Shown piece by piece: positions 33,001 to 57,300 of a stretch of DNA of 64,000 nt; position 1 is the stretch's first letter, and each line of letters begins with the position of its first letter. Location: assembly GCA_965178125.1 (NCBI GenBank), contig OZ237735.1, positions 186,001 to 250,000 of the forward strand, written 5' to 3'. Made by a program: the position numbers and the translations under genes. The stretch comes from Bilabrum cf. latius (lineage: Eukaryota). Below the pieces are notes generated by a model. That model made no database searches. It had not been told where the DNA came from and saw nothing but the letters and a program-made list of their open reading frames with translations.

Positions 33001-34395
33001 GACGGCCAGCCGCTTGCGCAGGCCCCACCGCCTGGGCATGCGGCTGAGAGCTGCCTGCAGAACGAAGGCGTCATCGATGCCCAGCCCGATCGCCAAGAAG
33101 GGCAGACTCGCGTTCAGCAGCACGAACTTGATCCCCACGATGGCGCACAGCCCAAAGGCGAGGGGCACAGCCAGCCCCGCGCTGATGACTCCCGCCTGCA
33201 CCAGGGCCTGCCTAGAGACGAGAGTGTCGATCGAACCGGAGGCCATCGTGGCGAACATGCACATGAGTGCCGCGGTGGACACCACCAGTGGTATATCCGT
33301 TGAGCTGGACTCCTCGATGCCGTCGTCCAGCGAGCGCCCGGCGAGGTAGACCAGCTCCACGCCCACCCGAGGTGCTTCTGCGCTCAGCTTGGATGAGCTG
33401 GCCGAGCTGCTGGAGTCTCCGCCTGATAGTGGCGATGCCACTGGGAGCGCAGGGAGAGAAGATCTCTGCAGCTTCTTCCTCCACTTCTCCATGGTCTCGA
33501 TGAAGCCGAGCTCCCAGTGCTGCACCCGCATCGAGGCCGGCGACCTGATCGAGCCTGTCGGGCCGTCCCCACTCCCGCTGATCGGGTCCGTCCAGTCGTC
33601 CAGCGTGACCTAATAATCCATGCGGAGTGCACTCGCCCCCACCATGAGAGCATCTCCCTCGAGCTCGGGGCGGCCCGCAGACATTGGCAGGTAGGCCACC
33701 GCGTGGTTTGCGTCCTGCTGCAGGCACACCGGGAAGGTGGCCGGAATCGCAGCCTACGCGGAATCGGTGCCGGGCAAGTAGCCACCATCTAGAATAGAGT
33801 CCAAATTTTTCCTGGCGTCGTCGACAACCGAGCTATTGAATGCGCACAGAGGAGCTCCACTAGCAGAGCAATCGCCACCGCTGCCAGGCTGACACACATC
33901 ACGCATTGTGGTCTTTGGTATCTCGCCAGCAGCTTGCACTGCAGTGGCCAATACATCATCGTGAATTGCCATTGCTAACGCAATCCCTTCCGCTGTCCAT
34001 ATCCCACCAGAGAACCCCTCTGCATCTTCTGTCTTCTGCACATTTCCCGCACCCTGTATTCCTGTCGATTTCAGGATCCAAGACTCAGCCCTGGTGCTAT
34101 TGTAGGGAAACAAAACTCGCACGACTTTGCGGTCTACCTTTGCGCGGGACAGTTTCGGGCTGAATAGGTATTGCGAGGAGGTGGCCACCTCCTGGTGGAG
34201 CATCCCAGCGCTACCCAGCATCACCACCAATAGGCACGAGACAATTACGCACCAAGGGCGCTAACCAACCGCAATGTACTCGCCCCATGCCTCGAACCCG
34301 TGCTGTATGGAGTGCTTTACGATGTGGGAAGCCTTGCTCCAGCCCGGGGGGCAGCAGCCGCCGTCGCGTGGATGCGCAGCGATTTCCCGCAGCAT
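30031..34395 (-). CDS. Patched/NPC1-family sterol-sensing-domain (RND) membrane protein, ~1454 aa
   Basis: ATG 34395. SSD motifs LPFLAIGLGIDDAFVL and EAGVAITVTSITDCLAFAVG. Second half has LAPDDSY, FLFFEQF, LGLGISLDMVSH, SYIFRCFF, GLFHALLVIPVLLS. TAGs at 34261, 33754, 33610, 32281, 32125, 31699, 30736 and 30658. Ends TGA. Confidence 0.9.
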
Positions 34396-37386: not shown

Positions 37387-40300
37387 ATGAGTTTTGTACT
37401 TCGATTGGACGAGTATGGCTAGCCTCAATTCAAAGGTCTATTGCTTGTTCCCGAGAATGGACGGGTGTTGGTGTCAGTTCCGCCCAATCGGCGCATGGAT
37501 TCTGTAAGAGTTGCACCTGCACGAGTTACGAATACGACCGTTCTGAGCTCGCAAACATTGCAATGCACAGTGTTTGTTCCCACTATCCGCTTTTAACTCA
37601 TTGCAGAAATCTCTTCGTCTTTGGACAAATTCCCCTGTCAGCACTTCGACCTCGTATCGCCGCAACGCGTACCGGCCCATCGGTGGTTGTACCGCCGCCT
37701 CGCCTGATGGGGAATGGCAGGCACTTTTGGAGCTGCATAGGCCGGGGGCATTTGAATTTTTCCTTGAGTACGAACCGATCCGGGACTTGTGCCTAATTGC
37801 GCACTCCCCTTCCCGAACTTCTGCGCACGACAGCCACCCGTACGATGATCTGGCATGGGTATAGCGAGCTGAATCTGACGCTCACGAGGCGTATGGCGAT
37901 TCTGCCGTGGACAATTCGCCAGTTGCAAAGGTTTTGGGCTCGTGCGTGCTCGCTCAAAACTCGCCGCTCCCAGGAAGGGGCCCCTCTGCATCCGCACGGT
38001 CAGACCCCGTCAGGTTCGTCTGCACGCCGAATCTTCGAATACGAGGGGCACAGCAGGAAGGATCGGACGCGGACGAAGAGGCGCTGCCGTACGCCGGGAT
38101 CACGTTGCAGACGCAGGTCACTCGCTGCCTGGGCCCTCTCCGGCACTGGGCGTGGACACTGGCCGACCCCGTGCGCTCGGGCTACACGATGGTCCACTTC
38201 ACCCCCGTGCAGAAGCGGGGGGCGTCTGGGAGCGCGTACTCGATCTGGGACCAGCTGACCCTCGACCCGGAGCTGTTTCGCGGCGATTCTGACGTCATCG
38301 CTGCCGCAGACCGTGCGGCATCCGAGACGCTCAGGCAGATCGCAGCGTTACCTGCCGATGCGGGCGTCCGAGCGGCAGTGGAGGCAGCGGCAGCAGAGGC
38401 CCAGATGGACTTGAAAGACCTGGGCATGGAGTCGTCTTCGTCCTCACTCGAGCCCCTTGCGTGGCTGACTTCGAGCGAAGGCGGCAGCGACCAGAGCGCG
38501 GCAGCATCAGGATCAGGATCAGGGTCAGGATCAGGATCAGGATCAGGGGCATAGTTAGGGTCAGGGTCCGGGTAGGCAGCCGTGGTGCCGGCGGGGATCA
38601 GAACGCGCGTGGTGCGCAAGGCATTCAGCGGCATCTACGATTGGTTGAAGCACGGTGAGCCTCGCAAGATCCACTGGGCCGAGCAGACTAGGAGGGGCAG
38701 GTCAGGTGGCATGTCTCCTCACGCCAGTGCCTCCACTCGCGAGATGGCCGACTACGATCCTGACCTCAACGGAGAGGTGGAGGCCATCAAGATGCGCAAG
38801 CTGGCGGGTGCACTGGATCAGCTGGAGCGCCGTGGGCGGGCGCTCTCGATGGTGGACATCGTGCTGAACCACACGGCGGCAGACTCGGCGTGGCTGGGCA
38901 GACACCCGGAGGCAGGCTACTCGCTGACGAACTCGCCTGCCCTGCGAGCTGCTGCCGCGCTGGACACGGATCTGATGCGGTTCAGCCACGAGGTGGCGCA
39001 GGGGCAGTACCAGGGCGATGGCGCCAGCCCGAAGCTGTGCAACGCCGATGCGGTCAACAGGGTGGTGGACGTGGCGCGGGATGTGGTGCCCAAGAGGCTG
39101 CGGCTGTGGGAGTACTACGTGGCGGACACTGTGACGGAACAAAGGGCGTTCCTGGCCTGGGTCGGGGCCGGGACCTCTCACGATTGTTTCGGGCCCCGTG
39201 GGGGGCGCCCCTCGCCGGATGTTGCAGGGGCGGGCTCCCTCGTGTTCTCCATGCATGCCGTGCCATTTGAGGCCAGGGAGGACGCAGTCATCTGCGACCC
39301 TCTTTACGGAAGGGGGGGCATGCAGCGCGGAGCCAGGGCCCTGGATCGCGTGCGGAGTCGTACCGAGGGTTTTAGCGATTGGGACTTCGGGCCCAGTCTG
39401 CCTGACGGCGAGGTGGACAAGCTCGTTGAGGCACTCTATGGCTCGGGGGCCGTGTGGAACGACGGATCGGGAGGTAGGTTTCCTGTGCACGTGGCTCCCG
39501 ATGAGCTGGTGGCAGAGATTTAGAAGCACTTTGGACACGCGATGCAAGGAGCAGGGCCAGTGGTGGACCTGGCCCAGCTCCGGCGAGCCATCGACCAGGG
39601 TGCCGATGCTGCAGACGACGAGACCTTCGCGGCGGCTGCCAGGTCCCTCTCGGTGGTGCAGCGATGCGTGGCTGCGGTGAATGTCCGGCTGTACAAGGCT
39701 TACGATGCGGACATCGACAAGGCATTTGGTGCCGTGCGTGGCACTGCGCTGCACGCCTGGCTGGGCGAAAAGAGCGGTCGGGAGTCTCTCAGCCTGCGCT
39801 ACCCGCTCGTGTACTCGTACTTTGCGCGGGTGGGCCGGACACCCAGCGTGGAAGTAGGGGGCGGTGCTGGTGACTCCGAGTCCAAGGTGGCGGGGCGAGC
39901 GGGGGCCAGCTCCCGCCGGCGCGTGCGGGCGGGTCCCTCCGCGGTGGGGGATGAATTCGAGGTGCCAGTGGACGAGACCGGCGTTGAAGGACACTGTATG
40001 GCCTGCAATGGATTCATCTGGGGCGGCGAGTCTGGCATTGATTTCACCCTACCGTACGATGCCATTCCGTAGTACGTGAAGGTGCTGAATCGGCGCAAGA
40101 CCATGCGGTTCCGCCAGCGCAAGTGGAGGTCCCGTCGCGGATCCCCAGGTGTGGAGGAGCGCTCGGACCCTGATGCGGACAGCACTGGGAGGGCCAGCAG
40201 CAGCGCGGAGGAGGGAGGTGACCAAGAGGACGACGAGCCAGAGACGCCAAAGAAGGAGACGGCCGATTTCAGCATCCCGCATGACTCTGCCTGGGATGCC

Positions 40301-43300
40301 CGGGCAGCGCGGGAGGCAGGACACAGCCACGGGCCTGGCGTGCTCCGGCGCATCAAGACGCCCACGCAGTCCGAGATGGACGAGTTGTCCGGGCAGGCGT
40401 TCGGGCAGGTCATCGGTGTGCGTGGATCCGGTGCTGCTGGCCAGGATAGTCCAAGACGGTCGGGCTCCGCTGCTGATGCGTAGTCTTCGTCTACAGGTCG
40501 GCGCGATCCTTTCAGCGTGAAGCTTAGGCGGATCAGCAGTTTTTATGAGGATGCTGGAGCCGAGAGCAAGTCTAATGACGATCCCTGGTCCTACCCGTTC
40601 CCCTACGCCTTCTCGAGTGGCTTGGCTAGCGAGCCGCTGCAGTGGGAAGGTGGTAACGCTGTTGGTGCCGCCGAGGCAAAGCAGGGAGGAAGCGCGGAAG
40701 GTGACGACGAGTCACCAGACGACAGCGACGACTCGATCGCGCGCACGCCGGCGGGCTCCCGCAGGAGCACACCGACCAGGTTCAAGCGGGTTCGGGTCTT
40801 GTCTCGAGGTGACCAGATGCTCCATCTGCCGGCAGAGCTCGGCATCCCGGTGCTGAACTCTTCCACCCCGTACATGCGTAGGTCCCTCGTGATCTGGGGC
40901 GACTGCGTCAAGTTACGGTACGGCCGATTTCCCATGGATTCCCCATGGATCTGGGCGCATATGACAGAGTACGCGCAGCGCATGGCCTCTCTGTTCCACG
41001 CCTTTCGCATCGACAACTGCCACGGGACGCCCATCCATGTCGCCGAGGCAATCCTGGATGCGGCTCGAGCCGTGCGGCCCAGCCTGTACGTGAACGCTGA
41101 GCTCTTCACGGGGAACCGGGACATGGACATCGCTTACATCTCCAGGCTCGGCATCAACTCTCTCGTCCAAGAGGCGGTGCAGACTGATAGTGCCGGGGCC
41201 ATGGTGGGGAAAGTGGCGCAGGGCGGCGGTCGGCCGGCGGGCACGCTGCAGGACCCCAACCTGGCGGTGAAGGAGCTGCTGCCTGCTAACGTGCCCGGAG
41301 TGCTGTTCGACTGCACGCACGACAACGAGGCTCCAGCCAAGATCCGCACCGGTCGGTGGTCCTTGCCCACCCTTGCAGCAACCTCCATGTGCGCGGGGGC
41401 TTGCGGCTCCGTTCGCGGCTTCGACGAGTGCGTGCCCGTCAACCCGAGTGTGGTATCTGACCACAGATTGTACGCCCGTGTGCCGCCGTGGGAAGAGATG
41501 CTGGCGTCGTGCGACCCCTCCTATCCCGAGTCACAGCTCAGGCGGGACGTCCTCGAAGCGATCACTGGTGCAAACAAGCTCGAGCCGCTGCCTCAGTTCC
41601 GGGGCCAACTGGCAGCCGCTCTCAACCGAGGTGCGCCAGCGGCCCTCCACGCCTTCCGCCTTGCCTTTACTAGGCTGCGCATGTACCTCTCGCGAGCTGG
41701 CTTCAACGAGGTGCACGTTGAGTGCCATGGGGGAGAAGGCCTGCCCGGCGCCGACGTACAGGTGGTGTATCGAGCTCACCCGGGTAACACGAGCACATAC
41801 GTGCTGCTTGCTCGGCAGGCGTGGGAGAAGGCTTCTCTGTCCGGTAGCGACCGCTCCATGGAGCCGATCCAGATGCGTGTGGATGGGCGGCTCACCTCAG
41901 TGGTGCTCGCGGGTCGGTGCGACGTGCAGGAGTGGGCCGTGCGCAACAAGGCGACGGTGGGCGCGCGCGCGGCTCGATCGGCTAGGGTTCGGGCTGCCGC
42001 TGAGCGGTTGGGGCGTGACGCGACGCATGGAAGCGAATCGCGTGGGCACGCTCTGCCTGGCTCTTCCAAGGCGTCTTTCACGGCGTGGCGGCACGATGCC
42101 GGCGTGATCAACGGCTACTTTGCGCCCTCGGTCGTTGCAATCGAAAAGAATTTCGCGAATCGAGTTGGAATCGTCTTGGATGAGCTCGATGCCGAGGGTG
42201 GCGAGGGTAAAAGATGCAGCCACGCAGTGTTTGGCTCCGGAGACCGCGCCTACGACGGATTCGTCGGATCGCTTGGCATGGTGCGAGACGTGAAGTGCAC
42301 AGAGGCGGGCAAGGGCTCGCTGCAGAGCACGGTGGTATCCGACCTCTTCCTTGATCGAGCGCACTTTTAGCCAGGGAGCGTGCTGCTGCTTAGGGTAGAC
42401 ACCGCTGAGAGCCCGAAGCTTGGCTCCGTCACGGACGGCGGCGATGCGAAAGGATCCAAAGAGGCGACTTCTGCTGCTGGGACTCCGCCTTCGTCGTCGG
42501 AGAGTAAAGGCACGCAGCCAGAGACCCTGCCGCTCCGTGAGCTGCACGATCGACTTGTGGACAACAGCGACGTGACCCTATCTGACCTGTGCGTGCTGCT
42601 GTATCGCGCGGAGCCCGAGGAAAAGGACGACTCTGGTGGGGCCAGGGGCTGCTACGGGTTGCCTTCGTCTGGCTTGCTTCCGTGGGCGGGCGTTATGGGC
42701 CTGCTCCGACCGCTGGTGCACGTTTCGAGGTGGAACGACACGGGACACCCGCTCTGTGGGAACCTGAGGGACGGCATGTGGCTCGCTGAGTACACGATAG
42801 ACCGCCTGCGGCGCCGCAGCAGCCTGGGTCCCGCGGCCGACTGGCTGCAGCAGTGGTGCGAGCGTGTGCGAGCCATGCAGCCAGGGCTCCGGCCCCAGGC
42901 CTTCGAGCGGGTCATGCGTGCGTTCATCGGGGTGTCTCTGGCCGCTGTGTTTGAGAGGATGAAGGAGTCACCGCTGCTGCGGCTGGCGAAGCAGCGAGCT
43001 GACAGGCTCTTGAGCGCCCTGCGCGATGGTGATGAGTCGATGCGGACCCAGCGAGGCCGCAGCGGGCTGGCGGTGGATGTGGAAGCCACGACTACGTTTG
43101 ATATGGGGGATGCTGGAAATGGCGTGCACGGCGCCGGCGATTCCACTCCTGCTGCAGCTACTGGTTCGAGTGTCGCACAAGAACCGGAGCCCAGAGCCAG
43201 CGCATCCCCCTCTGTGGGATCCCATGCGTCGATCGACACGATCGTTGCCATGAACCAGGGCTTCTTCTTCCGGCTTAAAGGCGGGACACTCGGTGACGGC

Positions 43301-45196
43301 AGCGAGGTGGGCAGCCTTCTGATCCCGTACGACCACAGCTTGCTGCTGACGTCGATCATGCTGTTTGCCGAGCAGCCCAGTGCTCCGCTGGTGGACGCCA
43401 GGCTCCCGGTGCTGCCTGTTGCCGACGCGTCAGGGGATAGGTTTTCTGGCTGTGCTGGATCGCTCGCGGCAGGCGTGGATCATTTTTGCACCGGGTTCAT
43501 GCGCAGCTGGGGTAGGGACACGTTCATCGCGCTGCGGGGACTGCTGCTAGTGCCTGGCCGGTGGGATGAAGCCAAGCAGACGATTCTCTCGTTCGCCGCT
43601 GTCCTGCGGCACGGCCTCATACCGAATCTGATGGACGGCGCCAGGAACCCGCGGTACAATGCGAGGGACGCCACATGGTTCTGGCTGCAGTCGGTCAAGG
43701 ACTACTGCCTCATGGCGCCAGAGGGCACCGGCCTGCTGTCGGCAAGGGTCAGGCGAAGGTTTCCGTCGGATGCTCAGTCGGACTACTACGCTGACGGGCT
43801 CATCGGCGGGCTGCAGGTGCCGAGAGACGGCTGGGGAGAGCCGGTACCTCTGCGTGAGATCGTGCTGGAGTGCATCGGGAGGCACGCGCGGGGCATTGAC
43901 TTTGTGGAGTGGAATGCAGGCAAATCCATTGATGCTCACATGAAACCGGAGGGGTTCCGCGTGACGGTGCGCATGTGCAAAGAGACGGGGCTGCTCCTTG
44001 GCGGGTCCTTGCACAACTGCGGGACCTGGATGGACAAGATGGGAGAGGCTCCAAACCACGGCACGGACGGTGTCCCGGCCACCCCTCGGGACGGTGCGCC
44101 TGTGGAGATCACGTGTCTGCAGTACTCGGTTCTATCTTGGCTCGCCCGATTGGCTGCAGGTGGGGACGAGAACTGGGCAGCGGTGCATTCGGTGAGTCTG
44201 GACAAGCACGGCGACGGCCGCGGCAGCGAGGATCTGCCTGCGTGGGCCGGGGCTGATGACGCTGCCACTGCCCTTGTGCTTCAGGAGCCCGTCTGGGACG
44301 CTGCCATCCGTCGTGCCGGGGAGCAGCTCCGCGCCAGAGGTGAAGACGGGCGGGAGTTGAAAGGGGAAGGGGGCACCGGCTCTGACTCGTCCAAGAAGGC
44401 AAGCAACGGAAGTGCCGCGGCATCGGATGGGGCCAGTCTGCCTCTCGTCAGCTGGGCTGCGCAGGTGCTCCGCTCCTTCGAGCGGTGCTACTGGGTGCCC
44501 TGTCTGCGCGGGTCCTTCTCGTCAGATCGATCGAATGGCGGGGAGCAGCCGGAGGACGGGTGCTTCTGCTCCGATGCGGAGTGTGCGGTCAATCAAGACG
44601 TCGTAAACGCGCGGGGCATCTACAAGGACACGTTCGGGGGCGCCGCGGCCGGCGGCTGGACCGACTACCAGCTGCGGCCCAATTTCATGGTCGGGATGGC
44701 GGTCGCGCCTGAGCTCTTCACGCCGTGGCGCGCGAGGCGGGCGCTGGGCACGGCGGAGCGGCAGCTGCTGGGGCAGGCCCCTGGACAGGTAGGCGTGTCC
44801 ACCCTGTGTCCCTCCGATTGGGCCTACCGCCCCGACTACGACAACAACGACGACTCGAGTCGCGAGACGGGCAAGGGCTGGAACTACCACCAGGGGCCGG
44901 AGTGGGTGTGGCCCTTTGGGTACTACCTGAGGGCCAGGCTCAGGTTCCAGCCGGTGCGGGCGGGGGCGGACCTCGGGGAGGGCTCGTGGTGCCAGGAGGA
45001 CGCAGTGCAGTGGGTGAGGGCTCGGCAGGAGAGGCACCGCCAGATGGTGGAGACGAGCCCGCACGGGGGACTGCCGGAGCTGACCAACGGCGGCGGGAAG
45101 TACTGCCCTGGCAGCTGCGTGGTGCAAGCTTGGAGCTCCTCGGCTCTCCTCGACGCTCTCCTCGACGCACACGCGCTTCCCGAAACCGGCAAGTGA
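37387..45196 (+). CDS. AGL: Glycogen debranching enzyme (4-alpha-glucanotransferase/amylo-1,6-glucosidase), ~2568 aa
   Basis: ATG 37387; intron 37504-37606 (GTAAGA...TTGCAG). Motifs HFTPVQKRGASGSAYSIWDQL, DIVLNHTA, WGDCVKLRYG, FRIDNCH, AELFTG, DCTHDN, RSWGRDTFIALRG, TWMDKMG, QLRPNF, NYHQGPEW, GLPEL, QAWS. TAGs at 37420, 37862, 38552, 38573, 39521, 40070, 40481 and 42368. Ends TGA. Confidence 0.93.
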
Positions 45197-45306: not shown

Positions 45307-48300
45307 ATGAGCGATCATAGGTTTGGGGCCGGGGTCGCTCCCATAAAGGACCTGAGGCGGCACCTAATCGCAGCCAGGTCAGTTGCGATAGCAAGTCAGA
45401 AAGAGCTCGAGCAAGTCAGCAAAGCCGATGCTTTGCATAAAGGTAGTACCCCACCAAGGACGAGTACTCTTTCCGAAAAACTATCGTTTGACCAAGACTA
45501 CAAGCATGGCCTTTGTGCGCCACCGAGTGGATTTCGAAGCCGAGACGGTGCTATTGGCACCAGACAGCAAAGTACCCAACTCAGCTAGCTGCTCGACAAA
45601 CGAGCCAGGCTACAAGTATCACTAGACTCTATCCAACATGCAGCGGGACTTCTACATCCAATAGCAGAAGAGCCGGCTGCTAGCAGACAGGCTGCCAACG
45701 GCCATTCGAGGCGCCCAATTGATCGACTGTAGCCGCAAACAAAGCCGAGGACTCTGCAAATTGGCTTGACTTCTTAGCTAGAGTCAAGCAAATAGGCAGA
45801 ACGCAAAGAGGAAGATCAGAACGCCGAAGTGTAGGCGAGAGAGTACCCGCTCCACCAGGCTCTTGTTGAGGCAACGGCAGGTGCTGCCGAGCTTAGGCAT
45901 GAGGCAATGACTGAGCACGTCCGAGCTGAAAGCAGGCTGAGGCCCTCTACCGTACTAAAACCTAGCTCGTCTGCCTCTTTTCATGCTCTTGATCCAGTCC
46001 AAGCCATGGAACGCTCAACTGCGTCTCGCCTGGTGCTGGCTCGAGTTCGTCGGGTCATACCAGTGCGCTTCTTGCAGCTCCCTATGAGCAAGTTCGTTCG
46101 CACGTGCATCAACCTGTAGGACTGGAGGCCAAGCGATCCGATCGTCGCCCAGCTTCTAGTTGACTTGCCGCCGGCAGGCGTGACCTCGCTGAATGTGAGT
46201 CACTCTGCCCCCGATTTGAGTCCGGCTGCCTGCGGCTAGCTGCTCAAGCATTTGTCGGGGTCGCTCAAGGTGCTCTGCGCCGATCATTGCGCGGGAATTC
46301 ACCCGTCTTCCCTGGCCTAGCTGCGGCCCAAGCGGATCGCAAGGCTCAGGGCGCTGTCGGTGTCCCACAGCCAAGGATTCGACGACCGGTGCGCGGCACT
46401 GGTCGCGCGACAGTGCGCTGCACTCGAAGTGCTGGCCTGTCGCGGATGCTCGTAGCTCACAGACGGGGGCCTGGCCCGCATGGTTGCAGGTTGTTCAAGC
46501 TCCCTTCTCGCTGCTAGCCTGGGCCTGTCGGCCGCCGTGTCGCGGGGCACGTGCGAGCAGCTCCAGGGCTGCAGAGGGCTTCAGGTACTCGACCTGAGCG
46601 ACTCGGAGCTGCTGGACGATAGGTGTATTGAACTGATGTGCGGCCAGAAGGGCCACCCCTTCCTGCGATACCTAGGACTGGCCAGGTGTGATTAGATATC
46701 AAGCGAGGGCGTGCAGTATTTGAGCGGGACGCGTCGCACCTTCGGCTACGAGGTGAATCCCAAGCCGAAGTATCCCAGGCTGGTGCAGGTGGACTGCTCT
46801 GGATGTAATCGCATCACAGATGACCTTTCTTCTTAGTGAGATCCGCGCCTTGGATACGATGGCCGTGCTGTCCCCTGACACGACTTGCGTGCACCCACCT
46901 TACCACAGCAAGCACTGCCTCTATGCTGCCTCGCTGACTCCATTTACTCTGCACGCAGTCTGCTTCGTGGATCGCCGAATATCAGGTCTCTAGACACCAG
47001 TGGGAGCACCCAAATGAGCGACACGTTCCTCGGCCCGCTCTCCCACCTGCGCAAGATCGAGGTTCTTCGGCTTGCAGATTGCCGGGAGGTCTCGGACACG
47101 GGCTTGGCCAGGTTCCTGGGGGCATCGGCCGCCGCTACCTTCGGCAAGGTCGCGGAGGCGCTGAGTGATGGTGCCGCCATGCTACGAGAAGCGCAGGCAG
47201 ACGCTGCAGTGACCGCGCGCGAAATTTCCATGGGTCTAGCGGGTGACCTGGCGAGGACCATTGCGGGTGGTGGCTCGGGCGAATCGCCAGCCAGTGGCGC
47301 GGCCTTGGATGCCACCCTTCTGAAAGATGTGGCGCTCCGAGCACGGGCGCTGGATCGGCTGTACAAGACCATTGGAGCGCAGTATCACAGGCTAGCAGGC
47401 CTGCCCTTTGATCCCCGGCATGAGCCGACCAATGCTGAGTTTGAGTCCCAGCCGCCGGAAGGTCCCTAGTACGTGCCCTGCCTGAGGTCCAGGCTCAAAT
47501 GGCTCGATTTAACCGGGTGCGCTCGGTTGTCTGACCACAGCATGGTTCTGATAGCACATCATTGCCCCAAGCTGGGCGCCATCAGCTGCTCGGGTGCACC
47601 GGGAATCACGGACGCTGGGCTGGTTGCCCTGTCTCGGGCCCCAGCTGCATCCAGGGCGCAGGTAGTCCGGTTTGAGGACTGCAGGTCCATCACGGGATTG
47701 GGAGCTGCGCGGCTGCTTGCATCCATGCCGCTCGTCACAATCGTTTCGTTCAAGGGCAGTTCCAACGTGGGAAACGAGGTCGGTGCCTCCATTCAGAACC
47801 TGCACAGGCTGCGGGACCTCGATCTGTCCGGCTGCCTGCGCGTGTCCGACCCCTGCATCGTGGGGCTGCCGAGAGGCCTGCGCCACATCCGACTTCGTGG
47901 AATTCCGAACATTACAGATGACGGGGTGCAGCGGGTTTTGCTCAGCGGAAGGTACCTGGAATCCATCCACCTCGGTCATTGCGGGAGGGTGACTGACGGG
48001 GCCTTCGTGCCTCTGCTCGAGCGCGGAGGCCGGTCGCACAAGGGGCAGACACTGTGTCCCCTTCTGCATACCATCGATGTCAGTGGGTGTCGTTGCTTGA
48101 ATCCCAGCGTCCTGCGAGCCTTGGCTGCCTTGCGCCGCAAGCTGGGGGTCTTCGCCAGGCACCGCTCCTTTGGCGAGTTCCTGCCCGGTTCGTCCGGCGA
48201 GTAGGACGCCCGGACATCTGGGAGCTTCGACCCGGATGCAGTCACCCTGAGCCCCAACCATTCCGAGTCGATGCAACCTTCACAAACCTTGGCTCCGCTG

Positions 48301-51300
48301 CAATCCGATTCGAGACTGCTCGACACAGCTGCGAGTCAGTTTGTCCTGTCACTGGACAGTGTAGGCCAGACGGCCAGCGGGTCCGGAGGTCATGCGGCGG
48401 ACGGTTTCATAATTGCATCATCGATCCCCGACAAGCCAGAATCGAAAGGAGAGGGCAACGGGTAGCCAAAGCACAGTGCAGGCTTCTGCACGGTCGCGCG
48501 ATGGGGCCTCCCTCCATCGGACCAGGTGTCGGGGGTGTCTCGAGGAGGCAAGCAGAGCTTCGGACTGCCAAGCAGGCCCGTGTCTTCGACCCGTTGGGCT
48601 AACCCTGTCCCCGCAAGCGAGTATTCGGAGGCATGCAGAGCTGAGCTGGGCTGTGAGCCGAGCAGTCTCGAGTTTGGAACCCGCCCGCCAGGCAGGGGTA
48701 GGATCGGCCCATTAGGGGCCAAGACGAGTGCCCCAGCCCCTGGAGTGCTCGTGCAGCTGCCTGAGGACGCAATCGTAGACTGGATGCCGTGGGCAAGATC
48801 CGTATGGTCCGAGCAGTCTCCAGCTGCTTCCAGCGTGCGACTACCAGGGAACAACGTGGGAGATCCGAGGTGCCCGTGGTACACCGCCACGTGCGCACAA
48901 ACGTTCGGCACTAGCTCCGTCGATCCGCTTGGCAGGGCATTTAGGTAGCAGCTGGACGGTGACGCGAAGCTGGGATAGCTTGCCCGAATCCACATCAACC
49001 GGCTGCCAGATGACTTTGAGGGCATCACTTGGGATTCACGCCTTGTGCAGCGGTAGTGCCGCAAGGAGTTTCGATCCATGTCAAGGCGCGAGAGGCGCGC
49101 GGTGCGTCTGCTGGAGCGGTTCTGGATGCACTCAGCGCAGGCTCTGGCCCGCAAAGGGGTTGAATGGGCTGTAAAGAAGCATAGAAACGTGATGGCGCGG
49201 ACAATTCAGTGCGTTACCAGGGCTTGGATCGCGAGGCGGGTAGTGGCCGGGATCCGGCGTGCTGGAGCCAAGCTAACACGGTGGGCGAGGTGGCGGCTCG
49301 TCCAGCGTAAGGATGCAAAGAAAGTGCTGAGAGCGCGCAGATTTAGGTGGAAGAAGCTCGTGCAGCGTTCTCTTGATCGGCTTGCCGCCCACTGCGAGCA
49401 GACGCTCTCCGAGAGACACCAGCCAAGCATTGTGGGACGCAACAGGCGGTGTCGCGTGATCGGGTCCCGGCTGCGCTTGTCACTGGCATGGATGAGCCTG
49501 CAGAGATGGTGGAGGACTCGGGTCAGCAGCAGCAGGCAGGCGATGCGAGCGCTCGAGTTCTTTGACTCGAACGAGATGCGGAGCCGCTTCCGGCGGTGGA
49601 GGCGCAGTGCCAGGCAGGCTCGAATCACCCGCGTGACCCTATCGAAGATCTTCCTGCACACTGTGTCTGTGCGCACCAGGAACTGTTCTTTTCACAGGTC
49701 GCGCGCAGATAGAGTGGAGAGCATGTACAGGCAATCTCTGAAGAAGCGGTGGCTCGGCAGGCTGGCTCGGGCGGCGGCCCAGGCGCGAACCAGGAAGCTG
49801 CGGGCCATTGGCATGCACAAGCGCCTGGGCATGCTGTCGTCGGCCACGCGACGTGCATTTGACGCGCTGAGGCAAGGCATCCGGATCGAGTCCAGGCAGC
49901 TCTGGCTGGAGCAAGAGGCGGACAAGACTGGGGCCAAGCGCCGCAAGAGGCGCGTGTTCCGTGCCATCCAATCCCTGGTGCACCGCACCCTGGAGGATCG
50001 GAAGAAGTTCATCATGTCCGTCTCCTTCTCCCACAGGCTCCTCAAGAAGCATGCATTCCAATCTATCGTTGGATTTGCTCGAGATGCTCGTGTCCGCAGA
50101 CGGCAAGCAGCCGCCATGCTGGTCAACTCCGAGAATGGGCTCATGCTGCGGTGCCTGCTTGCAATGCGGGCCAGGGTAGCCTTCCAGAGGCATCAGCAGA
50201 AGATCTTCCACAAAGCCGCTACACTCCAGCGCATGCAGCTGTGTAGACGATCTTTCCGTCGCATCCTGCAGTTCAACGATCAGGAGCGCAAGAGCATCGG
50301 CGGGATGGTGCGTTGGCTGCAGCGATCGGCTCTGCGGATTGGCTTTGCCGAGCTGCGAGACGGCGTGCAGATCGCGCAGCAACAGTTCTTGGAGAAGCTC
50401 CAGGGGGCAGAGAGGCTGCACTCGTCCGCCACTCGGCTGCAGTCGTGGTGGAGGGGCCGCAGGTCGGTAATGAGCGTGTACAGGAAGATCGCGAACCTCC
50501 GTCGGATCGCGGGGATGGTGGAGGAGGCCTGGCACTCGAGGAAACTCCGGAGAGCGGCGCGCCGAATCGCAGGTTTGGCAAAGACTGAGCTGTTCTGGCG
50601 GCACGAGCGCGAGCGGTTGCAGCTGGAGCAGTGTGACGTGGAGTCCAGACGACTCGAGCAGTGGGTTGGAGCGGCGAACCGCATCGGCACGGGCTATTTG
50701 GACTATCGCAAGAGGTTGGTTGCATGGCAGTTTAGGCAGGCGCAGCGGCTTCAAGCTAAGAAAGATAGGCTTGAGCGCCAGGCCTAGGAGAAGGCAGCTG
50801 CGCTCAGACAGCAAGAGAAGATCCGCGAGTTCCACCGGCGCGCCCCCGCGGCAGTGGAGCGCATCATTGCGGCGTGGAGAGGGTATGCGGAGAGAGAGCT
50901 TCGGCAAACCCTAAGAGCTCTTCAGTTGCAGCAGTGGAGCGCCACTCGCATCCAGCGCAACTACAGGCGAAGACTGGCCCGGTATCGAGCGGGGGCCATC
51001 CTGCGGTTGCGCGACGACCAGCTGCGGCGGCAGTCCCGACTGCAGCAGGAGGCGGCAGCTGCCAGGACTCTTGGATACAGGCACAGGGTGGAGCAAGGGG
51101 AGTTCCTGGAAGGGTTGAAATCATTTCCGTGGTTCATTAGCCTCTAGGACGTAATGGTGGTTCCGGAGCTCTCGCTGCAAGGCGCGTTGGACGGGTTTCT
51201 CGGCCTGTTTGGGTGCAGGCCTGCGCGCCAGTCCCGGGCGGTGTTCGCTGGATACGATCACGAGCGGCTGCATCGAGTCGCAATCTAGACCCCGCTGCAA

Positions 51301-54300
51301 GAGCTGTAGGGTGAGATTGGCAGAGACATGGAGATTGCCTTCTATGCCCTCGGTAAGACGGTTGAGATGGCGTGTGTGACCGGCGTCTCTAGCCGGGCGA
51401 GAGAGCGCAAGCTGCGGCAGCTGGCGCTCGAGCAGATCTCGGTGACGGTGCCCGATCTAGAACCTGGCGATGGTGCCCGGATAGTAGATCCCAGCAGCAC
51501 ACATCTCGGCAGAACCGGCACCGTGCTTCAGAGGCAGCCGGGCGTGCGATTCGGAGGCAAAGCCACCCTGAAGATGGACGACTCGGGTCAGCTGCTACAG
51601 GCGTACCTTACGCACGGGGGCCAGTCCGACATGACTGCCTAGGACTCGCTGCATCCTGTCCCAGGAGAGTTCGACAGCACCGGCAGCTCTATGGTGCCTG
51701 CTCGCCGGTAGCGCCTGCCCTGGTACACCCAGGACCAGCTGGTCGCCATGCGCGGCAGTCTTCTGCAGCATGCGGAAGCTATCCGACATAAAGAAAGGAC
51801 GAGGACAGCGGCGATCCGCATTCAGTCTGCGGCTCGCATGTGGCTCGCTCAGGCCCTGGCCGACAGAACCAAGCGACTCCGCGAGCTTGATCCAACCGCC
51901 GGGCAGCTCGGCGATTTGACCCTCTACGAGGAAGAGGACGTGTAGGCAGTCATCAAGACGAAGCCCGCCACAGGTTGGACTTGCGCAGGCTTGTTTGGGT
52001 GCCTAAGGCAGGCAGCCACCGCCGCTGGGCGCCGGGCAGTCAGGCGCCAGAACGAGATGCGGCACCTGATGCGCGCCAGGAGGCGCTGGATCCGCGACAT
52101 GGTGTTCCGCCGCAACCTGGCGGTGTCTGCAAGCGTGCCTGCAAAGGACATCGAGAGGGTTCTCCAGTCCCGCCAGCGGCTCGAAGCGATGGAACGTGCC
52201 GACGAGATGACGGAATGGCACCAGCTGGCGGAGTCCTACACGCGGGTAGACGTAGGCAGTGCTCTGGCCCCCGCCCCACCGGCCACCGGTGCTCGAGTCG
52301 ATCACTGGGCTGCTGCAAAGGACTCCCGTCCGGGCACCGGGCACAGCACGGCACCAGGCACTGCGACGGCCGCTGGGGAGTTTCCGTTGTCAGCTGGAGT
52401 TCAGGATCGTGTGGGATTCGGAACAAACGACGCTGGGGATGATGATGATGCATCCCGAGATGATCGCGGCGACGTATCGCTGCAAGCGACTTCGCTCGCG
52501 CCAAGTCGCCTCACAGAGGATGGGATTGGCAGCGGACTTGCTCGCGGCGAGCAGCCGTCCAACACGTGGTCTCGTCTCGCCAAGCCTCGTCCATTCGCAG
52601 GCTTCGACGACTTTGCTATGTCCGAGGATGACGGCCCCACGATGGTCGCTGACCTCACCACAGTCGGCGCTCTGGACAGGAACGGCCTGCGGCGGCGGTT
52701 CTAGCAGCGCGATCCCAATGCATAGGACAGCACCGAGTACAAGGAGCTGAGGCTTGAAGGCGACACCAGCTCTGCCAGGCTGCAGACGGCCACCGAGCGG
52801 CAGATGGTGGTGCAAACGCCACAGGCAGCACTGCGACACATTGGTGGCTCAGCCAACGTGCACATGCCGGCTAGTCGAGCACGCACGGCCCCAGCCATGG
52901 GGCGTGCCCCCAACATGTCCGCGGATGCCAGCATTGGCGCAGGTGCCATGCACCTGATCTCAGCCACGGAATCCAAGCGGTTGGCGGCACAGGCTCTCAG
53001 GCAGGTGAGGACAGCTGAGCATGGCACCCGAGAGCAGGCGCAGGGTGGGTCGCCGGGCAGTAGTCGTCCGGGCAGCGCGGCCTCGCAGACTGGGCTGCAC
53101 GGCATCGGCACCCCGTCCATTCTTCTCGATGCTCCGGGCATTGCGACCGATAGTTTGGAGCATGCTGTGGGCAAGAGGTCGAGCGTATTGGGTGGCGAGA
53201 CCCAGGTTGATCCCGAATCCGTAGCAATGAGCGGGTTCATCGCTGGGCACAGCCTGGAGCAGGCCGCTTCACTCGCCTCGATGCCTCGGGCGCCCGCCGT
53301 GCCATGGTCAGCGGCGGGCCGGGCACGAGGCGAAGTACCCATCAAACCATTTGGCGAGCTGGCACTGGCGCCGAGCGGTGGAGGGAACAAGGAGTGCACT
53401 GTGGCATCGAGCACACCGTCCAATCGGGTAGAAGGCTCTGCTGCATTTGCGGGATTCAGGGTGGGCACCGGTGCAGCCATCGGAGCTAGCGCTCCACTGC
53501 CTCGCAGCGCCATCGGCACCCCGCCTGAGGTGCTTCTGCTGCGGTGGAGGGAGAGAACGGCCATGGCCGTGCTGTGGCACAGGATGCGATACATTTTCCT
53601 TGCTTCGTTCTGCTACCCAGTCGCCAATCAGCTGCAGCTGCGGCACGAGATTGAGGCTGCCAGAGCCAGCGGCAGGCGCGCGATCAGGTGCCAGTCTCCA
53701 CGAAGGCCGGCGCTGACGCTGGAGGACGACGTGCAGCCTGCGGCGCACACACATGCGATACAGCCAGCCGTGGCTGCAGCCCCGCCCCTGGATCTCGGCA
53801 AAGCAGCAGGGACTGCAGGGGCAGCCGCAGGAAGCAGCCGCAGGCTCGCGCCAGGCGATGGATCCGCTGCCGATCTGCGCTCCACCGCAAACCTGCACGA
53901 CTTGGACCACAGGTCGGGCGAGGCCGTCTCTGGAGCTGCCCTGTGCTGCGCTGGGCCGGAGTGGCAGGAGGGTCACGTGACCTACCGCACATGGGTGGGC
54001 AGCTACAGGTTCACCGACCTGCGGCACTCTCCGCACGTGTCCGCCGGCGGGGATTCCCTCTACCACGGGGAGTGGAGCGAGGTAGGCGCGGCACAGGGGC
54101 ACCCGCATGGCAGGGGCTACGTGCACTTCTTGTCGGACCACCCTCGCTTCAACCCCGACTTCAACCGGTGGCCGGAGTACTACGAGAGGCTGCGGCACGC
54201 TAGAGATCGGCTGCTGGCCACAAGGGCGGACCGACCGTACGGCGAGCTGTTCACTGGTGCCAAGCCAGACGCAGATGTGCGGTCCAAGATGGCGAGGCTC

Positions 54301-57300
54301 ATCGCAAGGGACGAGGCCTTGTCTATCGCCATCGCGGCGCAGGCCGAGGCTGTCACTGTGGGGGCAGAGCCGCGAGCACTGGCCCTGGACGCGGTGGCTA
54401 GCTTGGCACGGAGGCTGGAGGCAGCGGCACGGAGGGACAGGAGGCAGCTGGAGCGCGCTGCCAAGCGAGGACACGAGCAGCCCTCCCACGAGCAGCCCTC
54501 CCACGTGAGGGGCCGCCAGCTGGAGGCTGCTATCCAGCGGGAACAAGAGGCGCGGGCCAGGAGGCTCGAGTGGCTGCGGCTGCGGGACTATGCGAGAAGG
54601 CAGCAGTATCTGGAGGCGGTGCGGCGCGCGGACGAGATCGCTCGTGCTGCGATCGGGGACAATCCGCAGCTGCTCCGCGACGCGTGGGGCGCGGGGGGCG
54701 GAGCCAGCCCGCAAGCAGCGGTGCGGCGCGCCTACAGCCAGAACCTAGACGATGTGCCCACCCCTCGACCCTAGTCTGCAGCACAAGACTACCAGTCATA
54801 GGACGGACTAGACGGTGGTGACGCATCACCGGCAGAAGAGGCCAGGCGACAGGCGGTGGAGCAGGTCCAGGGCCCGGGCTAGCTTGGCTACAGGCAGCAC
54901 GAGTTCGAGCCGCCGAGCGGTCTCGAGCTTAGCCCACTGTGTAACGACATCTCGTACGACCAGCTCGAGGGTGAGTTCAGGCACGGCTACGTGGGCGGGC
55001 TGGTGTCCATCTGGTACCGTGACGGCAGCGAGTACAACGGAGCGTACGTGTCCACGCTCCCGGACCCTCCCCGAGCCTCGATGCCTGACACGCCCTCCAC
55101 GTTCGATGAGGAACTGAAGCTGGCGCCCGGCATGCGCACCGGCAGGCATGCCATCGCGGACGCGGGCGGGCGGCTGTTCGAGGTGGCCATGCGGGCAGTG
55201 GGCCCAATCCCAGAGCGCCTGCTGCCTGCCTCGCTGCGCGGATCCAAGCACGTCGAGAAGTGGCTGGACGCATCTTCGCCCCAGCCTCGCCCGGTGCAGG
55301 CCGGTGGCAAGGCAGCAAGCGATCCTCTCGACCTGAACAAAGTACCTGCTGCAGCGGCCGGGCGCTGGTCTCCGAGCAGCGATCAGTCGTCCGTGTCGGA
55401 TCCTGACATGCCGGACGACCGCTAGTCTGGCTCTTTGATGTCCTCTGGCGGCCACCAGAACCTGCCCTCAGACTTTGAGCCCATCCCGCCCATGTCCATG
55501 TCCACTGACGGGGCGTCCGTGGGGTCTGACGAGCCGGGCAACCAAGGCGTCGGGCCGCTCGTCACTTCGTCGCTGCGTCAGGGATCGGCCGCAAGCCCAA
55601 CATTCACGCAAGGGCTCGGCACCGTTATTCCTAGCGGCGCCTCTCATCAGAGCCTGCAGAGCCTTCAGGGCCTCGCCCTCAACGAACGCCCCGCCAGTGC
55701 GTCGGTGGTTGTGGTCACGGGCCAGCCGCTGCCTGTTTCCCCCGATGATCCGGGGGAGGTGGACCTTCGCAGGGCCACCAGGCCGCGGGTGCGGTTCCCG
55801 CTCTTCTCGTGGCTCGGTAGCCTGTGCACCGCCATGGTGCGGCCCTCGCCTCCGATAAGGGGCCGGCTGGACGGTCACTGGGGCGTGTGGGTCACGAGAG
55901 ACGGCTGGCGCTTCGAGGGGCCCGAGGTGGACAACCACTTCAACGCGCTGCTGTGCACGGCGAGCAGGGCGGTGGTGCGGTCCCCTGACGGGCACGCCTA
56001 CGACGGTGCCATGTGCCTTGGCAAGCGCCACGGGAGGGGCGTGATGCGGTATGACAGCGGGACAACGTTCGACGGCTGGTGGCGGGATGGGGTGCCCTCC
56101 GGTCCTGGGGTCGTGACGCGCCCCTCTGGCCACCAGCTGGTCGGCTCCTTCGAGCACGGGCTGCCCCACGGCATATGCGTCGAGACGGACAGTGCCGGGG
56201 GGTTGTTCGTGGGCGAGTTCATGCACGGCTCCAAAACCGGCTTTGGGATCTTGCGGTCCGGACTGGTCGCAGCGGAGCCAGTGGGCGGCGTGCAGCTGCC
56301 TGCGTCCCTCAACACAGGAGCAGCAGCTGTGGATGCGCTGGTGAGAGAAGTGCACCTGGGGCACTTTGCCGGCAACCGTCCGCACGGGACGGGAGTCCGG
56401 CTGTACCGAGACGGGTCCTTGTTCTGGGGGGAGTGGCAGCACGGCAAGCGGAGCGGGTACGGTGTGTGGGAGTGGCCATCGGGGCAGAGGTACGACGGCA
56501 GCTTCGTCGACGACCAGAGGCACGGGGAGGCCGTCGTGTCCACGCCTGCTCCCAAGACGCTGGTGCGGGCCCCCGTCCTGCACGATGATGCCACTGTCCC
56601 GACGGCTGCTACGGCTGCTGCTTGTGCCAGTGGACCGGGGGGCCTGTTTCAGGAGCATGGCGCGGAAGACGGAGCAGCAGCTGATGCGCGACCCAGGGAG
56701 CAGGCGGGCCGCGATCCCACCGAGCCACCAGGTGCCTCCTCGTCCCCCTCCAGCGGCAGCACGGCCGGGAGAGAAGCCAGCCGGACGAGAGCCGTGCTGC
56801 GGCGACCACACAGACCGACATGGTCCGCCCGCACCGTGGACGAGACGGCCATTCGGTGGGTGCTGGACTCGGTGCAGAGCCGGGGCGGGTCGGTCGCCGC
56901 GCTGAGCGCGCGCATCGGCACCGAGGTGCGGCGGGCGCTGGACGCGTCCAGGCGGCTATACCGGGACGAGAGGCGCTGGGAGCGGCGCGTGGCGACAGAG
57001 TGGGAGCGGGACAGCAAGGTCCGCACGTTGGCTGAGCTATCGAGCGAGGCGGCCACGGAGCAGTTCAAGAGCAGCTTCCCGCTCGAGGTGCCGCTGCCGT
57101 CCCGGGGGCCAGTGCCCACCACTGCGTTCAGGGAGGAGGGCGAGTCCGGGGAGAGGGGGGGGGATGGCGACCCCCAGCACGGTGGCGATGGGGCGGCGGA
57201 AGAGGCCGAGTCGCCGCTGGCGGGCCAAGCAGAGCACTCGGCTGGTCCTCTCCCAGACAAAGCTGGCAGCGGCCCAAGCCAGGCCCCCGGCAGCGCTGCG

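What the first reader, a model, noticed from the sequence alone, without database searches (positions are those of the whole stretch)
46441..46710. Context indicates TAG = glutamine rather than Leu or Trp
Seen: TAG occupies the polar slot before I/L-T/S-D in Cys-LRRs (GCS*LTDGGL at 46453, RCD*ISSEGV at 46693), where sister repeats in the same protein have Q, R, E, N or S (GSTQMSD, GCNRITD). The Patched-like loop at 30658 reads GGG CAG GGG TAG GGG. PhoD has FR*QL and VPS9 has R*RDEVE*T in a charged helix. No TAG lies inside an obvious hydrophobic TM stretch of the membrane proteins. Inference: Gln fits best and TAG is one transition from CAG. Glu or Lys cannot be excluded by eye.
Basis: partly seen in the sequence, partly recalled or inferred. 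Interest (0 to 1): 0.85.

Follow-up and report, generated by a model that had tools for sequence, protein, structure and literature searches.

The report
TAG codon read as glutamine
In this GC-rich eukaryotic genome the usual stop codon TAG sits inside long, intact, conserved genes and most likely codes for glutamine, a rare but already known kind of change to the genetic code.

Summary
Observation confirmed: TAG lies in frame at 46453 and 46693, and at 61 places in seven genes. TAG is a sense codon. In 15,949 in-frame codons there are 60 TAG, 0 TAA and 0 TGA, and every frame ends in TGA. Spliced, 100% identical contigs of run X5 keep 21 TAGs.

The support comes from orthologues.
- A syntenic metagenome relative, L001 (61% identity), has 36 in-frame TAGs. 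In well-aligned columns these face window Gln in 7 of 13, including a Gln invariant in 38 of 38 AGL proteins.
- In fragments of a ~91% identical relative, window TAGs face Gln in 7 of 15 (P=1.2e-6).
- Gln is the maximum-likelihood residue in both sets, with Lys next, 12-19 log units lower.

Against: window TAGs face Gln in L001 only 1 of 14 times, and deep-homologue columns are variable or Ala.

TAA is not a sense codon. The pattern is UAG-only to Gln, as in Iotanema and some ciliates. No tRNA(CUA), eRF1 or peptide evidence was available.

The parts
46453..46455 (+). In-frame TAG in a Cys-LRR repeat (GCS-TAG-LTDGGL). L001 has His (CAC) here.
   Evidence: kept unchanged in spliced X5 contig record 2
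46693..46695 (+). In-frame TAG in a Cys-LRR repeat (RCD-TAG-ISSEGV)
   Evidence: kept unchanged in X5 record 2
45307..46835 (+). Exon 1 of one giant LRR/IQ/MORN gene. The spliced CDS is 4723 codons with 29 TAG and no other stop.
   Evidence: joint 46835>46959
46836..46958 (+). 123-nt GT..AG intron (phase 2). The apparent 'TAG TGA' end of the 45298 ORF is its donor site.
   Evidence: X5 contig skips it, with 255 nt on the shorter side. The junction reads ..ITDDLSSYLLRGSPNIRSLD...
46959..59592 (+). Exon 2 of the giant gene, with 19 TAG, ending in TGA. TAG 50785 faces Gln in the relative. TAGs 47467, 48202, 51145, 52702, 52723 and 54772 face K, P, S, K, W and E.
37387..45196 (+). Glycogen debranching enzyme (AGL) gene: exon 1 at 37387-37503, a 103-nt GT..AG intron at 37504-37606, exon 2 to the TGA. 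It has 8 TAG (37420, 37862, 38552, 38573, 39521, 40070, 40481, 42368). Three of them (37420, 39521, 42368) are also TAG in L001.
   Evidence: Pfam and PDB matches; splice joint and 0 differences in X5 record 1
20488..25350 (+). PhoD-like + TM + AnmK ORF with 9 TAG. TAGs 21181, 21466 and 25216 face Gln in the ~86-94% identical relative. TAGs 21778 and 24784 are shared stops/TAGs there.
30031..34395 (-). Patched/sterol-sensing-domain protein with 8 TAG. TAGs 33610 and 30736 face Gln in the relative, and 32125 faces Gly.
5006..8635 (-). WASHC4 (WASH complex subunit 4/7 domains) with 2 TAG. TAG 7025, inside WASH-7_mid, faces Gln in an 86% identical fragment (P0125).
17..2923 (-). 968-aa ORF with 2 TAG (2504, 2486) and only a sub-threshold VPS9 match
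25547..29872 (+). FG-GAP-like membrane protein with 3 TAG after the first Met
34629..36425 (-). LRR + ubiquitin-like (TBCE-like) gene with no TAG after the first Met. Its L001 orthologue has 2 TAG, facing window Q and G.

Best explanation
The organism is a GC-rich (about 65%), intron-poor eukaryote. It reads UAG as a sense codon for glutamine. UAA is not used as a sense codon, and UGA is the only terminator seen.

Shown here:
- TAG lies inside intact, conserved genes.
- TAG is kept in spliced, transcript-like contigs.
- TAG is shared with related organisms.
- TAG is exchanged mainly with CAG/Gln between relatives.

Inferred, not shown: decoding by a tRNA-Gln with anticodon CUA, together with an eRF1 that no longer recognises UAG, as in other UAG-to-Gln lineages.

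TAG makes up about 9% of Gln codons here and about 27% in the relative L001. Many window TAGs sit at weakly constrained sites, where TAG arises from any one-step neighbour codon.
For: 1. TAG is a sense codon. There are 60 TAG, 0 TAA and 0 TGA in 15,949 in-frame codons, against 163/53/474 in 31,874 off-frame triplets. All 17 of 17 frames end in TGA.

2. Six X5 contigs are 100% identical, and two of them splice out GT..AG introns. Together they cover 21 TAGs unchanged. The relative's contig in X8 runs through the first intron, so the joined forms look like cDNA.

3. L001 is syntenic (TBCE-like / AGL / Cys-LRR; AGL 61% identical). It has 36 in-frame TAG, 0 TAA and 0 TGA in 3,414 codons.

4. L001 TAG faces window Gln in 7 of 13 reliable columns, with the rest E2, H, A, S and G. 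The window codon is CAG in all 7. One of these columns is Gln in 38 of 38 other AGL proteins.

5. Likelihood over the 20 residues, using the same alignment's substitution counts: Gln -33.2, Lys -52.6, Glu -53.3 and background -51.0 for 16 reliable pairs. For all 42 pairs it is Gln -109.6 against Lys -125.1.

6. Window TAG against ~84-95% identical fragments: Gln in 7 of 15, P=1.2e-6 at a Gln frequency of 0.042. Likelihood is Gln -48.7 and Lys -61.2. In the four conserved proteins (PhoD/AnmK, Patched, WASHC4, AGL) it is 6 of 8.

7. Relatives' ORFs stop opposite a window Gln in 3 of 4 unshared ends.

8. Mean hydropathy around TAG is -0.53, the same as around Gln (-0.53), against -0.28 for all sites.

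9. TAA is not a sense codon. If TAA followed the CAA:CAG ratio, 10.5 would be expected in the window and 13.7 in L001. Both have 0 (P=6e-5 and 9e-6).
Against: - Window TAGs face Gln in L001 in only 1 of 14 aligned columns and 0 of 3 reliable ones, which are E, R and H.
- In the giant protein, 6 of 7 changed TAG sites face K, K, S, W, E and P in the close relative.
- TAG sites are much less conserved than ordinary Gln. Gln or a shared TAG is seen at 12 of 20 TAG sites, against 90% self-conservation of CAR-Gln. The background model (-47.4) therefore fits the 15 close pairs slightly better than pure Gln (-48.7).
- Deep homologues do not show Gln. Both AnmK TAG columns are Ala in 11 and 12 of 14 bacterial AnmKs. 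PDB AnmKs show W, W and A. The WASHC4 column is K20, E15, R15 and Q3 among 129 alignments. The two occupied AGL columns under window TAGs are T 19/38 and P 32/38.
- There is no tRNA(CUA) in the window, and no genome, eRF1 or peptide data.
- The type of run X5 is not on record. One T>C place in X5/X6 was not displayed.
Confidence: 0.88

Rival explanations
1. TAG is decoded ambiguously. It could be read by near-cognate tRNAs (Gln plus Tyr or Lys), or be both sense and occasional stop. It would then be tolerated mainly where the residue hardly matters.
For: - Window TAGs are enriched at variable sites. Only 5 of 18 aligned window TAG columns are 'reliable', against 1923 of 3193 columns overall.
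- 8 of 15 close-relative partners are non-Gln, and K, K, S, W and E are all one-step neighbours of TAG.
- TAG sites turn over faster than ordinary Gln.
Against: - In constrained proteins the partner is Gln in 6 of 8.
- L001 places TAG at a Gln that is invariant in 38 of 38 AGLs.
- The in-frame TAG frequency (0.38%) is close to the off-frame one (0.51%). That is what a freely tolerated codon at unconstrained sites would give, and it explains the mixed partners without ambiguity.
- No gene end at TAG was seen.
Confidence: 0.07
2. TAG codes for one other amino acid: Glu, Lys, Leu, Ser, Tyr, Trp or Ala.
For: - Glu is the second commonest partner, 5 of 38 pairs.
- Lys appears twice.
- Both AnmK TAG columns are Ala in bacteria.
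- UAG=Leu, Ser and Glu codes exist elsewhere (PMC5304391 abstract; PMC11687900 passages).
Against: - Likelihoods are 12-20 log units below Gln in both data sets.
- Leu and Tyr are 0 of 38 pairs, Trp 1, Ala 1 and Ser 3.
- At AnmK 25216 the 89% identical relative has Gln, not Ala.
Confidence: 0.04
3. The TAGs are not translated. They could be introns, RNA-editing sites (U to C), pseudogene lesions or assembly errors.
For: Two real introns exist, and one apparent TAG (46834) is indeed a splice donor. The type of run X5 is not on record.
Against: - There are 0 TGA and 0 TAA in 15,949 codons.
- 21 TAGs are unchanged in spliced, 100% identical contigs.
- TAGs occur in the same genes of L001 and of the ~91% relative, several at the same site.
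- Independent runs of 5 studies hold the stretch or parts of it.
Confidence: 0.01

Closest known systems
UAG-only to Gln nuclear code (NCBI table 15 pattern): Iotanema spirale, Protocruzia tuzeti and two phyllopharyngean ciliate lineages
   Same: UAG is read as Gln while UAA is not a sense codon (PMC5304391 abstract and Background; PMC11687900 Discussion passages). Here there are 60 TAG and 0 TAA in frame, and Gln is the best fit.
   Different: In I. spirale UAA is the primary terminator (PMC5304391 abstract). Here 17 of 17 frames end in TGA and none in TAA. The genome is about 65% GC with very long, nearly intron-free genes, so it does not look like a ciliate or a fornicate. The lineage itself was not determined.
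UAR to Gln code (NCBI table 6): many ciliates, some ulvophytes, hexamitin diplomonads, oxymonads, Amoeboaphelidium
   Same: A stop codon of the UAR pair is read as Gln.
   Different: TAA would also be a sense codon. It is absent from 15,949 window codons and 3,414 L001 codons, where 10.5 and 13.7 would be expected at the CAA:CAG ratio.
UAG to Leu (rhizarian exLh), UAG to Ser (Scotinosphaera), UAR or UAG to Glu (Blastocrithidia, some ciliates)
   Same: UAG is reassigned, and in the first two UAA is kept as a stop (PMC5304391; PMC11687900 passages).
   Different: The partner residues here are Leu 0, Ser 3 and Glu 5 of 38, against Gln 18. The likelihoods are far below Gln.
Code 15 in crAss-like phages
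   Same: TAG is read as Gln (PMC9523058, search listing and abstract only).
   Different: That is a phage system with a suppressor tRNA in a host that uses the standard code. Here the genes are eukaryotic chromosomal genes with spliceosomal introns.

Membership tests
UAG-only to Gln nuclear code (table 15 pattern) | In-frame UAG inside conserved, intact protein genes | tested here: met
   61 TAG in 7 genes (AGL, WASHC4, Patched, PhoD/AnmK and others) with no TGA or TAA
UAG-only to Gln nuclear code (table 15 pattern) | UAG positions correspond to Gln in orthologues | tested here: met
   7 of 13 (L001 TAGs, reliable columns), 7 of 15 (window TAGs against ~91% relatives), and 38 of 38 Gln at one invariant column. 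Gln is the ML residue. Weak for window TAGs against L001: 1 of 14.
UAG-only to Gln nuclear code (table 15 pattern) | UAA is not a sense codon | tested here: met
   0 TAA in 15,949 + 3,414 in-frame codons; P=6e-5 and 9e-6
UAG-only to Gln nuclear code (table 15 pattern) | UAA still works as a terminator | tested here: inconclusive
   0 of 17 frames end in TAA; all end in TGA. There are too few genes to tell 'rare' from 'unused'.
UAG-only to Gln nuclear code (table 15 pattern) | A tRNA-Gln with anticodon CUA | not testable with these tools
   No tRNA(CUA) in the window, L001 or L007, and no whole genome is held.
UAG-only to Gln nuclear code (table 15 pattern) | eRF1 altered so that UAG is not read as stop | not testable with these tools
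   eRF1 is not in the window and no genome is held.
UAG-only to Gln nuclear code (table 15 pattern) | Gln found at UAG sites in the protein | not testable with these tools
   Needs MS/MS.
UAR to Gln code (table 6) | Both UAA and UAG used as sense codons | tested here: not met
   TAA 0 against TAG 60 (window), and TAA 0 against TAG 36 (L001)
Context-dependent stop/sense codes (Condylostoma, Blastocrithidia type) | The reassigned codon also ends genes | tested here: inconclusive
   No frame needs TAG as its end. All run on to TGA. True C-termini were not mapped.

The most novel reading that the evidence does not exclude
The window, L001, the ~91% identical relative and two further fragments (from ENA and JGI contigs) may form a so far unreported clade of GC-rich, intron-poor eukaryotes, outside ciliates and fornicates. 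In this clade UAG was captured for Gln, UAA dropped out of use and UGA became the only terminator. The nearest sampled relative, L007, still ends its AGL gene with TAG and has none in frame. The two lineages would be at different stages: TAG is 9% of Gln codons in one and 27% in the other. That would be a reassignment of a commonly used stop codon in a GC-rich genome, which does not fit simple codon-capture by disuse.
Probability: 0.4. Interest if true: 0.72.

Novelty: new member of a known kind. Interest (0 to 1): 0.6.

Why it matters
UAG and UAA almost always change meaning together. UAG-only reassignment in nuclear genomes is known from only a handful of lineages (PMC5304391; PMC11687900).

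A further lineage that is GC-rich and has UGA as the only terminator seen is useful material. It comes with a sister that uses TAG three times as often and a more distant relative with the standard code, so it can show how a stop codon is captured.

There is also a practical side. Any annotation of this genome under the standard code breaks genes at every TAG. The relative's proteins in the public collection are visibly cut into fragments at TAG.

Tried and rejected
- No whole genome is held for the window, so no genome-wide tRNA, eRF1 or orthologue tabulation was possible.
- ARAGORN found no tRNA in the window, L001 or L007. Rfam found only a 63-nt tRNA-Lys(CUU)-like piece.
- The PDB search with WASHC4 gave 0 hits.
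- PDB AGL alignments were uninformative, because all 7 window TAGs of the long exon lie outside the aligned blocks.
- The Atlas search of the AGL C-terminus gave only the family, with no useful taxon. Its first try failed on a frame slip.
- No RNA holder is listed for the stretch. The X5/X6 run types are guesses.
- Only 40 of 1,844 differences of the ~92% identical relative (X7/X8) were displayed. A direct TAG-to-CAG codon count on that DNA was therefore not possible, and protein fragments were used instead.
- Other loci with TAG or TAA read through (L043, L044, L047, L048, L055 and others) are not close relatives and were not used.
- The excess of shared TAG sites between window and L001 is not significant: 3 seen, about 1.1 expected from the counts, by my own Poisson estimate.
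- Literature searches found no paper on a GC-rich non-ciliate with UAG=Gln. Subscription journals are not covered, supplements were not consulted, and the organism was not identified.
Full report
**The observation**

One is at 46453-46455 in ..GCS-TAG-LTDGGL.. and the other at 46693-46695 in ..RCD-TAG-ISSEGV... The other contexts quoted are also present: 30658 on the minus strand, 21181, and 2504/2486.

The window is about 65% G+C. It carries eukaryotic genes (Pfam):
- glycogen debranching enzyme (AGL)
- WASHC4
- a Patched/sterol-sensing protein
- a PhoD-like + AnmK ORF
- a TBCE-like gene
- C2H2 zinc-finger arrays
- a giant LRR/IQ/MORN protein

The 'VPS9' label rests on a sub-threshold match (E=0.22).

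**TAG is a sense codon**

Under the standard stops the longest frame is 1388 aa. With TAG read through, the longest frames are 4237, 2549, 1621, 1477, 1469 and 1454 aa.

| Where counted | Codons or triplets | TAG | TAA | TGA |
|---|---|---|---|---|
| In frame, 12 confident gene segments | 15,949 | 60 | 0 | 0 |
| The two other frames of the same DNA | 31,874 | 163 | 53 | 474 |

All 17 of the 17 large stop-to-stop frames end in TGA. One of these ends is not a gene end but a splice donor (see the next section).

**Transcript-like evidence**

Run X5 (type not on record) holds contigs that are 100% identical to the window and skip two GT..AG stretches: 37504-37606 (103 nt) and 46836-46958 (123 nt). 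X6 shows the first of these. The contig of a relative in X8 runs through 37400-44908 without that joint. The joined forms therefore look like cDNA.

Two consequences follow:
- The Cys-LRR ORF of the finding and the 4237-aa ORF behind it are one gene of 4723 codons with 29 TAGs.
- The AGL gene has a first exon at 37387-37503 with a further TAG at 37420.

The six listed X5 records cover 21 TAGs, including 46453 and 46693, with 0 other letters. If X5 is RNA, this excludes editing and introns for those 21 sites. One T>C place in X5/X6 was counted but not displayed, so I cannot place it.

**Relatives**

A scan of metagenome contigs with the AGL protein gave two useful loci.

- **L001** (11.3 kb, 58% GC) is collinear with the window: TBCE-like on the minus strand, then AGL, then Cys-LRR. 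Its AGL is 61% identical. It carries 25 in-frame TAGs in 2484 codons and ends in TGA. Over the three genes there are 36 TAG, 0 TAA and 0 TGA in 3,414 codons.
- **L007** (67% GC) holds an AGL of 2920 codons with the same long-insert architecture. It has no in-frame TAG and uses TAG as its terminator.

In a tree of 40 AGL proteins the window and L001 are sisters (support 100), and L007 joins them next (support 100). L007 has a long branch, and the rows have unusual composition.

**Which amino acid: L001 against the window**

The three gene pairs gave 3,193 aligned columns. I called 1,923 of them reliable, meaning no gap and at least 50% identity in the six columns on each side.

| Comparison | Columns | Gln | Other residues |
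|---|---|---|---|
| L001 TAG facing window, all aligned | 28 | 10 | not listed here |
| L001 TAG facing window, reliable | 13 | 7 (window codon CAG in all 7) | E2, H, A, S, G |
| Window TAG facing L001, all aligned | 14 | 1 | not listed here |
| Window TAG facing L001, reliable | 3 | 0 | E, R, H |

Two columns carry TAG in both genomes. A third shared TAG lies in AGL exon 1.

I scored each of the 20 residues using the substitution counts of the same alignment:

| Data set | Gln | Lys | Glu | Background |
|---|---|---|---|---|
| 16 reliable pairs | -33.2 | -52.6 | -53.3 | -51.0 |
| All 42 pairs | -109.6 | -125.1 | -134.2 | -120.7 |

Ordinary Gln is 2.8% of residues and is self-conserved in 52% of reliable columns. 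That is close to the 7 of 13 seen for L001 TAGs.

In an alignment with 38 further AGL proteins, the only invariant column under a TAG is Gln in 38 of 38. The window has Gln there and L001 has TAG.

**Which amino acid: the window against very close relatives**

The public protein collection holds fragments predicted from contigs of a relative about 91% identical to the window. They are cut at its own TAGs.

Window TAGs that these fragments span:

| Faces | Sites |
|---|---|
| Gln | 50785, 21181, 21466, 25216, 33610, 30736, 7025 |
| K, P, S, K, W, E | six sites in the giant protein |
| Gly | 32125 |
| Asp (GAT in X7/X8) | 37862 |

That is Gln in 7 of 15. At a Gln frequency of 0.042 this gives P=1.2e-6. 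Likelihoods are Gln -48.7 and Lys -61.2.

In the four conserved proteins the count is 6 of 8. In the giant, weakly constrained protein it is 1 of 7.

Five fragments end exactly at a window TAG, so the TAG is shared: 48463, 51286, 54799, 21778 and 24784. The last is also shared with a 68% identical ENA fragment. Four fragments end where the window has a sense codon, and that codon is Q, Q, Q and S.

Three pairs with more distant fragments give Q, E and G.

Adding the 16 reliable, 15 close, 4 ORF-end and 3 more distant pairs gives 38 pairs:

| Residue | Q | E | S | G | K | H | W | L | Y |
|---|---|---|---|---|---|---|---|---|---|
| Count of 38 | 18 | 5 | 3 | 3 | 2 | 2 | 1 | 0 | 0 |

**Results that do not point to Gln**

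- Deep homologues are uninformative or point elsewhere. Both AnmK TAG columns are Ala in 11 and 12 of 14 bacterial AnmKs. PDB AnmKs show W, W and A at one of them, and levoglucosan kinase shows E at the other.
- A PhoD homologue shows N and R.
- The WASHC4 column is K20, E15, R15, S8, D8 and Q3, with 29 gaps, among 129 alignments.
- The two well-occupied AGL columns under window TAGs are T 19/38 and P 32/38. The latter may be off by one column, because a Pro follows.
- At AnmK 25216 the close relative nevertheless has Gln, so that column changed within this lineage.
- TAG sites are less conserved than ordinary Gln: 12 of 20 are Gln or a shared TAG, against 90% self-conservation. For the 15 close pairs the background model (-47.4) is marginally better than pure Gln (-48.7).

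My reading of this is inference. The in-frame TAG frequency (0.38%) is near the off-frame one (0.51%). TAG is therefore freely tolerated, and most TAGs in a large, weakly constrained protein arise at unconstrained sites from any one-step neighbour. K, E, S, W and Q are all such neighbours. At constrained sites TAG alternates with CAG.

An ambiguous decoding of TAG cannot be excluded from sequence alone.

- In nine Cys-LRR repeats the slot before [ILVM][TS] holds R4, E, S, C and the two TAGs.
- L001 has His at the 46453 slot.
- Hydropathy around TAG equals that around Gln: -0.53 for both, against -0.28 overall.
- 0 of 61 TAGs lie in TM-like windows, but only 0.75 would be expected.

These points are compatible with Gln but would not have decided it.

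**TAA and termination**

If TAA were a sense codon in the CAA:CAG proportion, 10.5 would be expected in the window and 13.7 in L001. Both have 0 (P=6e-5 and 9e-6). No frame ends in TAA (0 of 17). TAA is therefore either a rare terminator or unused. The window is too small to say which.

**Mechanism**

Shown here:
- TAG is in frame and transcribed.
- TAG sites are conserved among relatives.
- TAG is exchanged with Gln codons.

Inferred from what is established for other UAG-to-Gln lineages (PMC5304391, Background read): a tRNA-Gln(CUA), which reads UAG but not UAA, plus an eRF1 that has lost UAG recognition. Neither could be tested. The window, L001 and L007 hold no tRNA(CUA), and no genome is held.

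**Comparison and novelty**

UAG-only to Gln is reported for Iotanema spirale, Protocruzia tuzeti and two phyllopharyngean ciliate lineages (PMC5304391, abstract and Background read; PMC11687900, Discussion passages). UAR to Gln is reported for many others, including Amoeboaphelidium.

The pattern here matches the first kind and fails the defining feature of the second, because TAA is not a sense codon.

It differs from I. spirale in using TGA, not UAA, as the terminator. It also differs in genome style: high GC and very long, nearly intron-free genes.

Three full-text searches found no report of such an organism. The organism was not identified, and the library lacks most subscription journals.

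I rate it a new member of a known kind.

**Verdict**

Noticed in passing
window 62639-62701 (+): A 63-nt tRNA-like piece with a CUU (Lys) anticodon loop and a truncated T arm (Rfam tRNA, 34.5 bits). ARAGORN does not call it. It is probably a tRNA-derived fragment or pseudogene, not a suppressor.
   Followed up: partly
window 10027-18605 (-): A tandemly duplicated module: a C2H2 zinc-finger array gene plus a GH5-like gene (10027-13693 and 14074-17200), then a third, frame-disrupted zinc-finger remnant (17604-18605). The 5' leaders are near-identical and carry TAGs ahead of the Met.
   Followed up: no
window 15674-17200 (-): The second GH5-like copy carries about 8 tandem copies of a 9-residue unit (GGKVDREGL) near its C-terminus, where the first copy has one.
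   Followed up: no
window 20488-25350 (+): One ORF joins a PhoD-like phosphatase, a TM segment and an AnmK domain. The AnmK part is 33-40% identical to bacterial AnmKs and shares the motif GWDGD.LEAQCFA almost letter for letter, which suggests a bacterial origin for that domain.
   Followed up: partly
window 37387-45196 (+); L001 2413-9867; L007 8921-17683: The AGL proteins of this group are 2,500-2,900 aa, about 1,000 aa longer than the usual ~1,500 aa. The large insertions between conserved blocks are shared by the window, L001 and L007.
   Followed up: partly
window 37504-37606 and 46836-46958 (+): These are the only two introns seen in 20 kb: GT..AG, 103 and 123 nt. Both are spliced out in X5 contigs. 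The genes are otherwise uninterrupted for up to 12.6 kb.
   Followed up: yes
window TAGs 37420, 39521, 42368 (AGL) and 24784 (AnmK): These TAGs are kept as TAG in L001 (61% identical), or in two other relatives for 24784. Shared TAGs with L001 number 3, against about 1.1 expected, which is not significant.
   Followed up: partly
window 37400-57399, runs X7/X8: Two further runs, one labelled protist metagenome, hold a relative about 92% identical over the whole 20 kb. Only 40 of 1,844 differences were displayed.
   Followed up: partly
loci L043, L044, L047, L048, L055, L063, L068, L080: Other AGL-bearing metagenome contigs whose frames open only when TAG (and often TAA) is read through. They are unrelated organisms with reassigned stops, possibly ciliates, and were not examined.
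   Followed up: no
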